A stretch of 44,253 nt of DNA from Promethearchaeota archaeon (GCA_048941015.1 JBHLNZ010000026.1:1-44253); one strand, 5' to 3'. Positions 25,349 to 29,126 are shown, numbered from the stretch's first letter. Program-made: numbers and translations. Notes: generated from the letters alone by a model not told the origin.

Positions 25349-26431
25349 TTAAATTCTCCTTCTTCTCCATATAAAAAACACTAATAAAATAAAACCGCCA
25401 ATGCAGGATAAAACAACAATAAGAATGATGTAATTAAACTCGACCATAAATACATCAGAATTCAAGAGATTTATTGCATCAAAAGTTACTAAAATATCAA
25501 AAGCATAGTATGAAGATGAAATTGAAGAAAATTCTGGTTCTCCTGAAACACTATGATCACCAAAGCCTCCATCCTGAAAATTTTGATGGTTTAAAACCCA
25601 ATTGATGGTAGCATCTTGTTTTTGAGAAGAATCTATTAAATTAATGGCTTTAATACAGAAATAAGTACTACTCAATAATGAATTTTTTGCATTATCATCT
25701 GGTAAATATCCTCCATAATTATTTATATTTGAGGAATCGTTCACGTATAAAGACTTTAAATAATTGAGTGTAGCAATTTTGTCATCTAGATCATCAATTG
25801 TTCCGATATTACTGATAAGATCGACAGCATAATAAGTCGTAAGAATAGTTGAAGATAAACTACTATTACCACCGTAACCTCCATCAGTATTATTACATTG
25901 CAATATCCAATTTTTATGAGTTGTTGCATTTGGGAATTGTTCTCCTATATATGAATAAATATGATAAGCATAATAAGTTGATATCATATCTGCTGATGTA
26001 GAAGTATTAACATAACTGAAACCGCCTTCCAATTGTTCTGTTTGATCAAGAGAATTCTGTATTTTGGTATTTAAATCTGAATCTAATGAATAATCTAGTA
26101 TATCTAATGCTTTCAAGAGAAAATATATCTCATATAAATGATTTGTTCCTTCAAGTTTTTCTTCTAAATTTTCTTTAAATGCAGATACATCCACTTTTGT
26201 AGTAGAGCCAAACAATCCTTGAACGACATATAAATTATAATAATTTATTATTTCAAAAGCATAAGCAGTTTCTTGCTCGGATTCACCAAAACCTGAATTA
26301 TCATCTTGTTGAGTAAAAATAAAATCAGTTAAGTATTTATTGCGGGGTTTTGCAGAGACAATTGGAGTAATTACAATTAGGACAGTCAATAAAACTGATA
26401 TTATCGTGATATATTTGAATTTGAACTTCAA
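25349..26431 (-). CDS. Membrane-anchored surface protein with prenyltransferase/squalene-cyclase repeats
   Basis: Signal peptide; repeated Q/N-xx-D/E-GG-F/Y followed by STY(Y)A helices; C-terminal TM plus RRRR. Confidence 0.75.
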   Translation of the reverse strand: MKFKFKYITIISVLLTVLIVITPIVSAKPRNKYLTDFIFTQQDDNSGFGESEQETAYAFEIINYYNLYVVQGLFGSTTKVDVSAFKENLEEKLEGTNHLYEIYFLLKALDILDYSLDSDLNTKIQNSLDQTEQLEGGFSYVNTSTSADMISTYYAYHIYSYIGEQFPNATTHKNWILQCNNTDGGYGGNSSLSSTILTTYYAVDLISNIGTIDDLDDKIATLNYLKSLYVNDSSNINNYGGYLPDDNAKNSLLSSTYFCIKAINLIDSSQKQDATINWVLNHQNFQDGGFGDHSVSGEPEFSSISSSYYAFDILVTFDAINLLNSDVFMVEFNYIILIVVLSCIGGFILLVFFIWRRRRI

Positions 26432-26541
26432 TTAATAAAAGACCTCAGTCTGGTTTTAATTTAAATTTTAATTTTTTAAATTTAACTTGTAATTAAAAAT
26501 TAACGATATTATAGGAAAAATGTTGGAAAATTATAAATTTT

Positions 26542-28068
26542 TTAAAAAATCTCACTTATATCCTTATATAATAAATCTTTATTTGCTAGGAACTGCTCAT
26601 GTGTAACAAACAGAGTCTGAAAAGAAGGTAAACTTCCTAAAATTGCTGCTCCATTGAATATAGTATATTGTAGACTATCCGGTACGTAGAACCTCAAGAT
26701 TTCATCTATTGTTTTATAATAACCAGAAAATTCTCTTGCTTGAGGGGGAGATTTTATGACTTCGCTTGGAATTTCTTTAAATTCATCAATTTGAAGTGTC
26801 TTTCCGCAATAAGGACAGAAGAGAGAAGAATCATCATCTACTTTTTTATTACAGTGAGGACATATTACTCTTCCATTAACTATTTTTGCTTTTTTCCCAG
26901 TATCAGGAGCGCCTATGGATAATTCAGGTAAAACCATTCTTCCTCCACAAGAAGGGCAAAATTCTTTTCCATCAGATAAATCTACTAATACTCCGCAATG
27001 TGGACACGTATCTTTATCCTTTTTAGCTATTTCTATTGTTTGAAGTTTAAGTTTTTTATTTTCAAAAGTAACTTCTTCTTTTGGTTTTGGAATTTTTCCC
27101 AATTGTGAGAGTAAGGAATTTAATTCATTTCTAAGTCTTTCTTCAAAACCAGAATAAGAAAGATTGCCTCCTGAGAGGACAATATGAGACAAAAGATCAC
27201 TCCAATAATATTTATCAATGCTCTGCAAACAATTTATAATAGCTTCTGGAATATTCATCATATTATAGCCAATTAAAGAGGGTTGGAATAAAACTTCAGG
27301 TGCTTCATGGAATATATAATGAGGGACTTTAATATTTGAACCATCGGGCATTGCAAAGTCAAAACTATCCTTCATATTGGGAGGTTGACTTGGATCTAAA
27401 ACAAAATAGCAATTCTTTTCCTTAATTTCTTTAATAATTTGGTCAACTGCAGATGATTCAATATTGATACCTTCTCTCATTAATAGATTTTTCAAGTGTT
27501 GATTAACATCTGTCCCAGCAAGAGTTAGTTTTTGAATGGATTGATCGATCATTTGACCATTTATAATGGGACAAATCCATGTAATACCATCTCCACTTTC
27601 AATGACTAAACCAGTTGTCAAACCCACACTGAATATTGATAATATGGGAGTAGGAACCATAATTAAGCTTTTTACTTTATGGGTTTCGTATAAAACACGA
27701 GCAATATATTCCTTAATATCTCTCTGAATAAATGGCGCTTCAGTATATAAAACGGGATAGTTTGAAAGAGTTTCTATTCTTAATAATGAATAAAAAATAT
27801 AATTAAGAATTTCATAGAAATCATTCCAATCTAAAATTGCACCTCTCTCTATGGGATATTTAATCTTAAGAACTCCACGCATCTTTGCTGCGTCATTGCC
27901 AATGTATATATTTCTAGCAGCTACATCTACTAATACAGTTTTATACTTTTCAGTACCTGTAATTGTTGGAAATACAAATCGGGGACCTGGTTCACCTGCA
28001 AAACCTATTTTTGTATATGCACTGCCAACATCAATAATAACTGGTGTTCCGGGAAGAGGTATTGCCAT
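26542..28068 (-). CDS. Actin-related protein with double zinc-ribbon insertion
   Basis: DVGSAYTKIGFAGE, KYPIERG, TEAP, ESGDG, IKEKNCY, PEVLFQPS, VLSGG, GAAILGSL; four CxxC motifs inserted near the C-terminus. Confidence 0.92.
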   Translation of the reverse strand: MAIPLPGTPVIIDVGSAYTKIGFAGEPGPRFVFPTITGTEKYKTVLVDVAARNIYIGNDAAKMRGVLKIKYPIERGAILDWNDFYEILNYIFYSLLRIETLSNYPVLYTEAPFIQRDIKEYIARVLYETHKVKSLIMVPTPILSIFSVGLTTGLVIESGDGITWICPIINGQMIDQSIQKLTLAGTDVNQHLKNLLMREGINIESSAVDQIIKEIKEKNCYFVLDPSQPPNMKDSFDFAMPDGSNIKVPHYIFHEAPEVLFQPSLIGYNMMNIPEAIINCLQSIDKYYWSDLLSHIVLSGGNLSYSGFEERLRNELNSLLSQLGKIPKPKEEVTFENKKLKLQTIEIAKKDKDTCPHCGVLVDLSDGKEFCPSCGGRMVLPELSIGAPDTGKKAKIVNGRVICPHCNKKVDDDSSLFCPYCGKTLQIDEFKEIPSEVIKSPPQAREFSGYYKTIDEILRFYVPDSLQYTIFNGAAILGSLPSFQTLFVTHEQFLANKDLLYKDISEIF

Positions 28069-28216
28069 GTTTCATCAGATTTTGATAATTTTAATATCTT
28101 ATATACAAATATGATAATTTAAGTGTTAGTATGATATTATATTAAATAGATTTTTCTTAATTATATTAATTTTTCCAATTGAAAATCATATTGCTGGAAT
28201 CTATTAATAAGCTTTA

Positions 28217-28715: not shown

Positions 28716-29126
28716 TTAATCAATTTTAAGTGTTTTTTCAAGTTTTTGCTCAATTTCCTTTAATTCCCTTATCAGATTATTATATGTTTTTAATAGAAAT
28801 TGACCCCATTCATTTAAACGTATCCATCCTCCACCTCCCGGACCTCCTTTACCCGTTTCTACAGGAGAAAATCCAGTTCTTTCAGTGATTCTTTTTAAAA
28901 TACTCCACGCATATTTGTAAGAATAACCACATTCTTGTGCTGCTTTTGTTAAAGAGTGATGACCTTCTTTATTTGGTTTTTCGATATTTTCTAACAATTT
29001 AGCCCAACCAGAACCGAGGATATTCTTGTTTTTTTCATTTTCAAATTCTAGCCAGCATTTAATTCCAAAACTTATTTTACTTTTTAACCGATCTAGCTTA
29101 AATTTTGAAATAGGGTTTTGATCCAT
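28716..29126 (-). CDS. ModE-like winged-helix regulator (N-terminal domain only)
   Basis: SLTKAAQECGYSYKYAW, VETGKGGPGGGG..LNEWG. Confidence 0.82.
   Translation of the reverse strand: MDQNPISKFKLDRLKSKISFGIKCWLEFENEKNKNILGSGWAKLLENIEKPNKEGHHSLTKAAQECGYSYKYAWSILKRITERTGFSPVETGKGGPGGGGWIRLNEWGQFLLKTYNNLIRELKEIEQKLEKTLKID

What the first reader, a model, noticed from the sequence alone, without database searches (positions are those of the whole stretch)
26542..28068. Actin-related protein with a double zinc-ribbon insertion and substituted catalytic residues
The sequence aligns by eye with actin end to end. About 125 aa containing CPHC/CPSC and CPHC/CPYC (around 26800-27010) are inserted between the ERLRNEL helix and the strand preceding the PPERKYS-equivalent (VPDSLQYT), i.e. 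the actin 322-327 loop of subdomain 3. Actin Q137 (IQAVLSL) reads PTPILSI, H161 (VTHNVPI) reads ITWICPI, and H73 is R. The phosphate loops are largely kept (DVGSA, ESGDG). Inference: a nucleotide-binding but hydrolysis-impaired ARP acting as nucleator, cap or scaffold, with Zn ribbons that may link it to partners such as ubiquitin-like proteins, membrane proteins or nucleic acid.
Basis: partly seen in the sequence, partly recalled or inferred. Interest (0 to 1): 0.8.

Follow-up and report, generated by a model that had tools for sequence, protein, structure and literature searches.

The report
Asgard actin relative with zinc ribbons
This is a real gene, kept across one order of Loki-type Asgard archaea, for an actin-like protein that keeps actin's ATP-binding loops but not its ATP-splitting residues and carries two tethered zinc ribbons in a loop where actin subunits normally stack; it may end or anchor actin filaments, but nobody has tested it.

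Summary
Window 26542-28068 (minus strand) encodes a 508-aa protein that is actin from end to end. A 135-aa insertion (aa 323-457) carries two CPxC...CPxC zinc ribbons and replaces the actin 322-325 loop of subdomain 3.

- **Catalytic and binding residues:** actin Q137, H161 and H73 read T, W and R, and D154 reads E. The phosphate, ribose and adenine contacts are kept.
- **Not a chimera:** a contig from an independent study spans the gene without indels. More than 1000 database proteins and 79 species genomes share the architecture.
- **Distribution:** it is confined to one GTDB order and forms one clade. That order includes Lokiarchaeum ossiferum, where a published primer identifies the orthologue as UYP44711.1.
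- **Faces:** the pointed-end face resembles the genome's own Lokiactin as closely as eukaryotic actin does. The barbed-end cleft and subdomain-3 loops have diverged.
- **Insert:** the linkers are predicted disordered but are fixed in length.

Best reading, at about 35%: an ATP-binding, hydrolysis-poor actin relative that docks on Lokiactin barbed ends and tethers them through the ribbons. No function has been tested.

I found no paper describing the insert. This scan noted the same family earlier in at least 51 other genomes. It is a new variant of a known kind.

The parts
26542..28068 (-). Whole gene for the zinc-ribbon actin-related protein, 508 aa plus stop
   Evidence: The N-terminus is conserved in the family. 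A TATA-like box lies about 35 nt upstream of the ATG.
27103..28068 (-). Actin core, N-terminal part (aa 1-322): subdomains 1, 2, 4 and most of 3
   Evidence: Pfam Actin 9-322. pLDDT is mostly above 90. Foldseek TM to actins is about 0.9.
27907..27957 (-). D-loop region (aa 38-54). It is strongly conserved and shares K-Y and D-V with Lokiactin's D-loop.
   Evidence: K41 and Y42 are invariant.
28009..28032 (-). Phosphate loop 1 (DVGSAYTK, aa 13-20). D13, G15 and K20 are invariant.
27844..27846 (-). R75, at the position of actin H73. It is invariant across the order.
27649..27651 (-). T140, at the position of actin Q137. It is T in 87% of the family and S or A in divergent members.
27577..27600 (-). 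Phosphate loop 2 (ESGDGITW, aa 157-164). E157 stands for D154 and W164 for H161.
26698..27102 (-). 135-aa insertion (aa 323-457) replacing the actin 322-325 loop of subdomain 3
   Evidence: Linkers 332-348, 381-392 and 429-447 have pLDDT below 50. Linker lengths are fixed within the family.
27076..27102 (-). Conserved start of the insert (LGxIPKPK motif, aa 323-331). It is modelled with moderate confidence.
26935..27012 (-). Zinc ribbon 1 (aa 353-378). C355, C358, C371 and C374 are invariant in all 122 aligned members, including divergent families.
26794..26868 (-). Zinc ribbon 2 (aa 401-425). C403, C406, C418 and C421 are kept in at least 90%. It is absent from the L. ossiferum orthologue and from P0127.
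26728..26745 (-). Conserved acidic-aromatic motif in linker 3 (PxAxEF, aa 442-447). Divergent families have an E-Y-(G/D/S) counterpart.
26545..26697 (-). Actin core, C-terminal part (aa 458-508), equivalent to actin about 325-375
25349..26431 (-). Conserved downstream neighbour. It has a signal peptide, a prenyltransferase-like alpha/alpha toroid, a C-terminal membrane helix and a basic tail. Any link to the actin relative is unproven.

Best explanation
The gene encodes a folded actin-related protein that binds an adenine nucleotide but hydrolyses it slowly or not at all.

**Proposed mechanism.** It uses its retained pointed-end face (D-loop, subdomain-2 61-65 segment, subdomain-4 loops) to dock onto the barbed end of a Lokiactin filament, or onto a Lokiactin monomer. 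Its own barbed-end face is remodelled:
- the 322-325 stacking loop is replaced by the 135-aa insert;
- the 283-294 loop and the W-loop of the cleft have diverged.

No further Lokiactin subunit would therefore add normally, and the protein would act as a filament-end cap. The one or two zinc ribbons hang on disordered tethers of about 30 residues with fixed length. They would attach that filament end to a partner that is still unknown.

**Shown here:** the fold, the insertion site, the zinc-ribbon signature, the replaced catalytic residues, conservation across the order, and the asymmetry between the two faces.

**Inferred:** nucleotide binding, weak hydrolysis, docking on Lokiactin, capping and tethering.
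For: - **Fold and insertion site:**
- **Nucleotide contacts kept, catalytic residues replaced family-wide:** Q137 to T/S/A, H161 to W/T/F/Y, D154 to E.
- **A separate canonical Lokiactin exists in the same genome:**
- **Face analysis, as within-family conservation and identity to the genome's own Lokiactin:**
  - pointed-face positions: 0.89 conserved (P=0.013 against random position sets) and 0.50 identical;
  - all aligned positions: 0.82 and 0.36;
  - subdomain-3 barbed loops: 0.70 (P=0.009, low side) and 0.20.
- **The same positions in eukaryotic actin against Lokiactin:** 0.50 pointed, 0.91 cleft, 0.50 subdomain-3 loops, 0.61 overall. The pointed face is thus fully retained in relative terms, while the cleft (0.43) and subdomain-3 loops fall to less than half.
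- **The D-loop shares Lokiactin-specific K-Y and D-V:**
- **Linkers are disordered yet fixed in length in 117 family members:** 29-33, 19-28 and 32-41 aa. This fits tethers with a geometric requirement.
- **One clade and one origin, confined to one order:**
- **Transcription of the L. ossiferum orthologue:** it was measured by RT-qPCR, and Lokiactin was expressed severalfold higher (PMC9834061; primer match). This fits a substoichiometric regulator.
Against: - No binding, capping or ATPase data exist.
- The face asymmetry is modest. It rests on 20-36 non-independent positions and on an F-actin contact list taken from established structural knowledge, not recomputed here.
- The hydrophobic cleft is well conserved within the family (0.87). 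That points to a ligand on the barbed face too, such as a D-loop in a homopolymer, a profilin- or gelsolin-like protein, or the insert's own motifs.
- A flexible insert need not block subunit addition.
- Ribbon number and linker charge vary between families.
Confidence: 0.35

Rival explanations
1. It is a filament-independent scaffold. The actin-fold protein would act as a nucleotide-dependent structural subunit of another complex, as nuclear Arp4, Arp5 and Arp8 do in remodellers, with the zinc ribbons binding a protein or nucleic acid.
For: The catalytic residues are replaced while the nucleotide contacts are kept, as in non-polymerising eukaryotic Arps (established knowledge). Insertions define such Arps. 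Zinc ribbons often bind nucleic acid or protein. Linker 1 is basic in the window's family, with a median of +5.
Against: The D-loop and pointed-face contacts, which are needed only for actin-actin stacking, are the best conserved surface. The insert is net acidic, -2 to -29, in the divergent families. No specific affinity to any eukaryotic Arp was found.
Confidence: 0.2
2. It polymerises. The protein would form its own filaments or co-polymerise within Lokiactin filaments, with the ribbons decorating the filament surface as attachment points along its length.
For: Both halves of the main longitudinal contact, the D-loop and the hydrophobic cleft, are conserved within the family at 0.88 and 0.87. 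The insert is on flexible tethers.
Against: The 322-325 stacking loop is replaced. The 283-294 loop and the lateral contacts have diverged from Lokiactin (0.20-0.28 identity). The cleft residues that receive a D-loop (Y166, E167, Y169 equivalents) are changed. Q137 and H161, which couple polymerisation to hydrolysis, are lost.
Confidence: 0.15
3. It is a monomer-binding regulator or nucleator. The protein would bind a Lokiactin monomer through its pointed face to sequester it. Alternatively, it would seed a filament that grows from the other side.
For: The pointed-face evidence is the same as for the cap model. Fixed-length tethers could recruit further factors.
Against: A nucleator that templates growth, like Arp2/3, must offer an intact barbed face. 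Here that face is the altered one.
Confidence: 0.1
4. It is an artefact: an assembly chimera, or a decaying pseudogene with a foreign insert.
For: None found.
Against: An independent-study contig of 8399 nt spans the gene without indels. The same architecture occurs in more than 1000 proteins and 79 species genomes, with open frames and 56-93% identity. The Cys ligands are invariant.
Confidence: 0.01

Closest known systems
Ca. Lokiarchaeum ossiferum actin homologue UYP44711.1, one of three 'ARPs' in Rodrigues-Oliveira et al., PMC9834061, Fig. 5d,e
   Same: It is the orthologue. It lies in the same clade, has the same insertion site and the same downstream neighbour. The published primer 361F lies inside the gene. 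Its transcription was assayed by RT-qPCR, and the text reports Lokiactin as severalfold higher than the other homologues.
   Different: It is about 37-39% identical, 499 aa long, has only one zinc ribbon and has acidic linkers. The paper does not mention the insert or test a function.
Lokiactin (the genome's own copy at L001:1474-2619; solved relative 'HC1 actin', PDB 9wc4)
   Same: It has the same fold, about 36% identity, a similar D-loop and pointed face, and the same nucleotide-binding loops.
   Different: Lokiactin keeps Q137, H161, H73 and the 322-325 loop, has no insert, and builds the filaments seen in cells (PMC9834061). The protein here has lost all four features.
Eukaryotic Arp1 (centractin), the name JGI's automatic annotation gives some members
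   Same: It has an actin fold of similar length without the insert. Its PDB score (232 bits) is as high as that of actins.
   Different: There is no preferential similarity: HC1 actin scores 235 bits, Arp1 232 and actins 224-229. The tree gives no supported grouping with any eukaryote-like representative. Arp1 has no zinc ribbons.
Eukaryotic Arps defined by insertions (Arp5, Arp8, Arp4 of INO80 and SWR1 remodellers)
   Same: They are actin folds with large surface insertions that make contacts to partners, and they have reduced or absent ATPase activity (established knowledge).
   Different: Their insertion sites and insert folds differ. They work with HSA-domain helicases in a nucleus. No relationship was shown here.
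Filament-end proteins built on or acting on actin ends (Arp11 at the dynactin pointed end; CapZ and gelsolin at barbed ends)
   Same: The proposed working principle is the same: a subunit that occupies a filament end and cannot be extended.
   Different: Arp11 caps the pointed end. CapZ and gelsolin are not actin folds. None carries zinc ribbons. Capping is untested here.

Membership tests
Actin family (Pfam PF00022) | Profile match over the whole actin fold, above the curated cut-off | tested here: met
   232 bits against a cut-off of 27, aa 9-322. The C-terminal part aligns after the insert. Foldseek TM is 0.87-0.91 to actins.
Actin family (Pfam PF00022) | Nucleotide-binding phosphate loops and adenosine contacts (D11, G13, K18, G156, D157, G158, K213, E214, G301, G302) | tested here: met
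   All are present and 95-100% conserved. Binding itself was not assayed.
Conventional actin / Lokiactin | Catalytic Q137 and H161, and H73 | tested here: not met
   They read T140, W164 and R75, family-wide.
Conventional actin / Lokiactin | Intact longitudinal stacking loop 322-325 | tested here: not met
   It is replaced by the 135-aa insert.
Arp1 / centractin | Specific orthology to eukaryotic Arp1, meaning higher similarity or a supported clade | tested here: not met
   Scores to Arp1, HC1 actin and actins are equal. The backbone of the tree is unresolved, and the nearest rows are Asgard actin-like proteins.
Arp2/3 complex | Presence of ARPC subunits such as ARPC4 in the genome | tested here: inconclusive
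   PF05856 was not found in the window's genome, but the search had no positive control.
Nuclear Arps of remodellers (Arp4/5/8) | An HSA-domain partner in the genome | tested here: inconclusive
   PF07529 was not found, without a positive control.
Zinc ribbon (Pfam PF13248, PF13240, PF12773 DZR) | Two CxxC knuckles 11-12 residues apart, with a profile match above the cut-off | tested here: met
   35.7, 32.8 and 34.3 bits against cut-offs of 27, 25 and 27.3. The spacings are exactly 12 and 11 in 117 members. The Cys are invariant or at least 90% conserved. Zinc content was not measured.
Zinc-ribbon actin-related protein of the Lokiarchaeum order (family defined here and in earlier notes of this scan) | Actin core plus a zinc-ribbon insert at the 322-325 loop, forming one clade | tested here: met
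   The clade has SH-aLRT support of 100 and a stem length of 0.61. Orthologues occur in all four families of the order and none outside it among the genomes sampled across the phylum.

The most novel reading that the evidence does not exclude
This would be the first prokaryotic filament-end regulator built from an actin fold. The protein would plug Lokiactin barbed ends and, through zinc ribbons on tethers of set length, fasten those ends to a cellular structure such as the membrane or the cell-surface machinery of the protrusions. If so, specialisation of actin relatives for controlling filament ends arose independently in Asgard archaea.
Probability: 0.3. Interest if true: 0.8.

Novelty: new variant of a known kind. 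Interest (0 to 1): 0.6.

Why it matters
[quoted passage not shown] This family has a clear, unusual and strongly conserved design:
- a one-sided actin body;
- lost catalytic residues;
- tethered zinc ribbons at a stacking loop.

It exists in at least one cultured strain, L. ossiferum. That turns 'what do archaeal actin relatives do?' into concrete experiments on end capping, ATP binding and ribbon partners.

If it proves to control filament ends, it would show that regulation of actin by actin-like proteins predates eukaryotes or arose in parallel with them.

Tried and rejected
- **Complex prediction of the protein with the genome's Lokiactin:** not folded.
- **RNA evidence:** no RNA holder is listed.
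- **ESM Atlas search with the insert:** no usable hit.
- **HSA and ARPC4 families in the window's genome:** not found with these queries, and there was no positive control.
- **Paralogous ribbons in the window's genome:** only weak matches to ribbon 2 (E 4e-6 or worse) in small unrelated frames. The insert is not a recent copy of another gene in this genome.
- **Phylogenetic placement among actins and Arps:** the backbone is unresolved, there is no outgroup and the representatives are unnamed. I claim only that the family is monophyletic.
- **Co-loss of the actin relative and its downstream neighbour:** inconclusive.
  - G233 also lacks FolD and the beta-lactamase-fold gene, which indicates an assembly gap.
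  - G147 has a synteny break right after FolD.
- **The neighbour's cytoplasmic tail as docking site for the ribbons:** considered and set aside.
  - The tail is only 5-8 basic residues after a membrane helix.
  - The coupling is not absolute.
- **One 'joint' in run X6:** it has a side of 21 letters from another contig. I treat it as spurious.
- **Literature:** no paper in the searchable library mentions the zinc-ribbon insert.

Full report
**What is there.** The window (28% G+C) has an open frame at 26542..28068 on the minus strand that encodes 508 aa.
- Pfam finds Actin over aa 9-322 (E 1e-68), plus Zn_ribbon_3, Zn_Ribbon_1 and DZR over aa 354-425, all above their curated cut-offs.
- Against PDB sequences, the best matches are an Asgard 'HC1 actin' (9wc4, 235 bits), Arp1 (232 bits) and many actins (224-229 bits).
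- Each match aligns in two pieces: aa 6-322, and aa 458-493 to actin about 327-365.
- The insert is therefore aa 323-457, window 26698-27102. It sits exactly at actin's 322-325 loop.
- An AlphaFold2 model built on 122 family sequences has a mean pLDDT of 81. The actin core is mostly above 90, the ribbons about 70, and the three linkers (332-348, 381-392, 429-447) below 50.
- The model matches solved actins with TM 0.87-0.91 normalised to the target.

**Residues.** I used a eukaryotic actin that shares alpha-actin numbering (P0139, aa 1-365) and the genome's own Lokiactin as rulers.

| Actin residue | This protein | Conservation |
|---|---|---|
| Q137 | T140 | 87% T; S or A in divergent members |
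| H161 | W164 | 100% in the window's GTDB family; T, F or Y elsewhere |
| H73 | R75 | invariant |
| D154 | E157 | 98% |
| K336 | Q467 | 91% |

D11, G13, K18, G156, D157, G158, K213, E214, G301 and G302 are kept. T140 begins helix 140-147 and W164 lies in strand 163-169 of the model, the structural places of Q137 and H161. A structural realignment is therefore unlikely to restore them. Weak hydrolysis is an inference from these identities only.

**Real and conserved.**
- The large protein database returns more than 1000 relatives. The best 120 are nearly all about 490-512 aa (three shorter fragments of 455-484 aa) and 61-93% identical, and all but one carry both the Actin and the zinc-ribbon domains.
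- Seventy-nine species-representative genomes hold a relative at 56-91% identity, full-length in nearly all.
- In a library clustered at 50% identity, only seven clusters share the architecture. Scores then fall to the generic actin level.
- A contig of 8399 nt from a different study covers 26489-28200 with 60 substitutions and no indel. Chimerism is excluded.

**Distribution.** I searched 400 genomes sampled across the phylum.
- Most of the window's GTDB family has a full-length match; seven of its 134 genomes, most of them incomplete assemblies, show only a Lokiactin-level match.
- The three other families of the same order have diverged versions: 35-45% identical, in frames of 489-566 aa.
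- Genomes outside the order have only ordinary actins of about 363-413 aa that match aa 5-324.
- NCBI titles naming Hod-, Hermod- or Thorarchaeota for some records therefore look like labelling differences.
- A tree on the actin core puts all insert-bearing proteins in one clade (SH-aLRT 100, stem 0.61). Their position among other actins is unresolved. A nearest neighbour, P0160, is itself an Asgard actin-like protein.

**Cultured strain.** Genome G138 is a single contig of 6.04 Mb. It carries the published RT-qPCR primer 361F of GenBank UYP44711.1 inside the orthologous gene. UYP44711.1, one of the three 'ARPs' of Lokiarchaeum ossiferum, is therefore this protein. Its transcription was assayed there, and Lokiactin was reported as severalfold higher (PMC9834061). 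The L. ossiferum version has only one ribbon and acidic linkers. A 4.36-Mb single-contig relative has two ribbons.

**Paralogues.** The window's genome has four actin-fold genes:
- a canonical Lokiactin with Q137, H161 and H73;
- this protein;
- two further paralogues that also lack H161.

**Which face is kept.** I used F-actin contact positions from established structural work (Oda 2009; later cryo-EM), which I did not recompute.

| Position set | Conservation within the family | Identity to own Lokiactin | Eukaryotic actin against Lokiactin |
|---|---|---|---|
| Pointed face (D-loop, 61-65, 200-208, 241-247) | 0.89 (P=0.013) | 0.50 | 0.50 |
| Hydrophobic cleft | 0.87 | 0.43 | 0.91 |
| Barbed subdomain-3 loops (283-294, 320-327) | 0.70 (P=0.009, low side) | 0.20 | 0.50 |
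| Lateral contacts | 0.77 | 0.28 | 0.48 |
| All aligned positions | 0.82 | 0.36 | 0.61 |

Relative to its overall divergence, the protein has kept the pointed face in full and lost more than half of the barbed-face similarity. The D-loop shares K-Y and D-V with Lokiactin but not with eukaryotic actin. These are small, non-independent position sets, so this is moderate evidence.

**The insert.**
- The Cys of ribbon 1 are invariant across the order. Ribbon 2 is kept in at least 90% but is dispensable.
- The CxxC spacings are exactly 12 and 11 in 117 members.
- Linker lengths vary only within 29-33, 19-28 and 32-41 aa, although linker sequence conservation is only 0.46-0.56.
- Conserved short motifs flank the ribbons: LGxIPKPK at the start, and PxAxEF in linker 3.
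- Net charge of the insert is about +2 in the window's family but -2 to -29 in the divergent families. There is thus no order-wide polybasic character.

**Neighbourhood.**
- The whole block within 6 kb on either side is collinear in most close relatives, so most of the linkage reflects shared ancestry.
- One adjacency persists in all four families, even where FolD and the ModE-like gene are no longer adjacent. The gene is followed on the same strand, after about 90-140 nt, by a protein with a signal peptide, a prenyltransferase-like toroid, a membrane helix and a basic tail.
- Orthologues of that protein (E below 1e-44) are confined to the same order.
- The coupling is not absolute. Some genomes keep the actin relative without it (G274, G276, G278; unlinked in G279).

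I record this as a lead, not as part of the mechanism.

**Interpretation.** I favour, at about 0.35, an ATP-binding, hydrolysis-poor actin relative. It would dock by its pointed face on Lokiactin barbed ends, could not be extended, and would tether the end through its ribbons. The rivals are:
- a filament-independent scaffold (0.2);
- a polymerising or co-polymerising paralogue (0.15), which the conserved cleft keeps alive;
- a monomer binder or nucleator (0.1).

**Novelty.** Nine literature searches found no description of the insert. The only paper naming the orthologue treats it as an untested 'ARP'.

This scan has noted the same family before, in at least 51 other genomes. Those notes gave me the cap reading, which I tested only partly. 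I checked the distribution, the identity with the cultured strain's gene and the residue claims independently here.

Noticed in passing
window 25349-26431 (-); L084:1056-2204, L085:687-1838, L086:993-2126, L088:1837-3018, L090:4804-5952, L091:2659-3825, L092:5839-7062, L093:5676-6842: A secreted or membrane-anchored protein with a prenyltransferase-like alpha/alpha toroid lies directly downstream of the actin relative. It has a signal peptide, a C-terminal helix and a tail such as RRRRI or KYKNRI. The adjacency holds in all four families of the order at only 22-35% identity. Orthologues are confined to that order, and a few genomes break the pairing.
   Followed up: partly
window 25349-25470 (C-terminus of the same neighbour): The C-terminus has three parts: a short motif (VEF in the window's family), a membrane helix and an Arg/Lys cluster ending in I, L or V. 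This resembles exosortase- or archaeosortase-type sorting signals. No NCBIfam signal model matched.
   Followed up: partly
window 28716-29126 (-): A 136-aa protein resembles the ModE N-terminal HTH domain (TIGR00637, E 8e-13, below the cut-off). It lies upstream of the actin relative in 69 of 79 close loci and in three of the four loci examined from the family that holds L. ossiferum.
   Followed up: partly
L002:1489-2604 and L004:1483-2637 (same genome, contigs C24 and C35): Two further actin paralogues of 371 and 384 aa have no insert. One reads D and R at the Q137 and H161 positions. The other reads Y at H161 and E at Q137 in the family alignment, though by eye the Q could be kept, and it lacks most of the D-loop region. 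Their functions are also unknown.
   Followed up: partly
L015 (DATKTW010000100.1): A 30-kb contig filed as 'Candidatus Nanopelagicaceae bacterium' carries a 73% identical orthologue of this Asgard gene. The record is probably mis-binned or mislabelled. Several records titled Hod-, Hermod- or Thorarchaeota fall in the window's own GTDB family.
   Followed up: no
L098 (G147:C5:1-10376): A 100% complete genome of the same family keeps the longin, DRG-like GTPase, 151-aa gene and FolD block. Synteny ends right after FolD. The actin relative, its neighbour and the beta-lactamase-fold gene are not found anywhere in the assembly.
   Followed up: partly
window 26432-26541: The 110-nt spacer after the gene has T-runs at and just after the stop codon, AT-rich TATA-like boxes, and GAGGT 12 nt (about 10-15 nt) before the neighbour's TTG start. 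The two genes may be transcribed separately.
   Followed up: no
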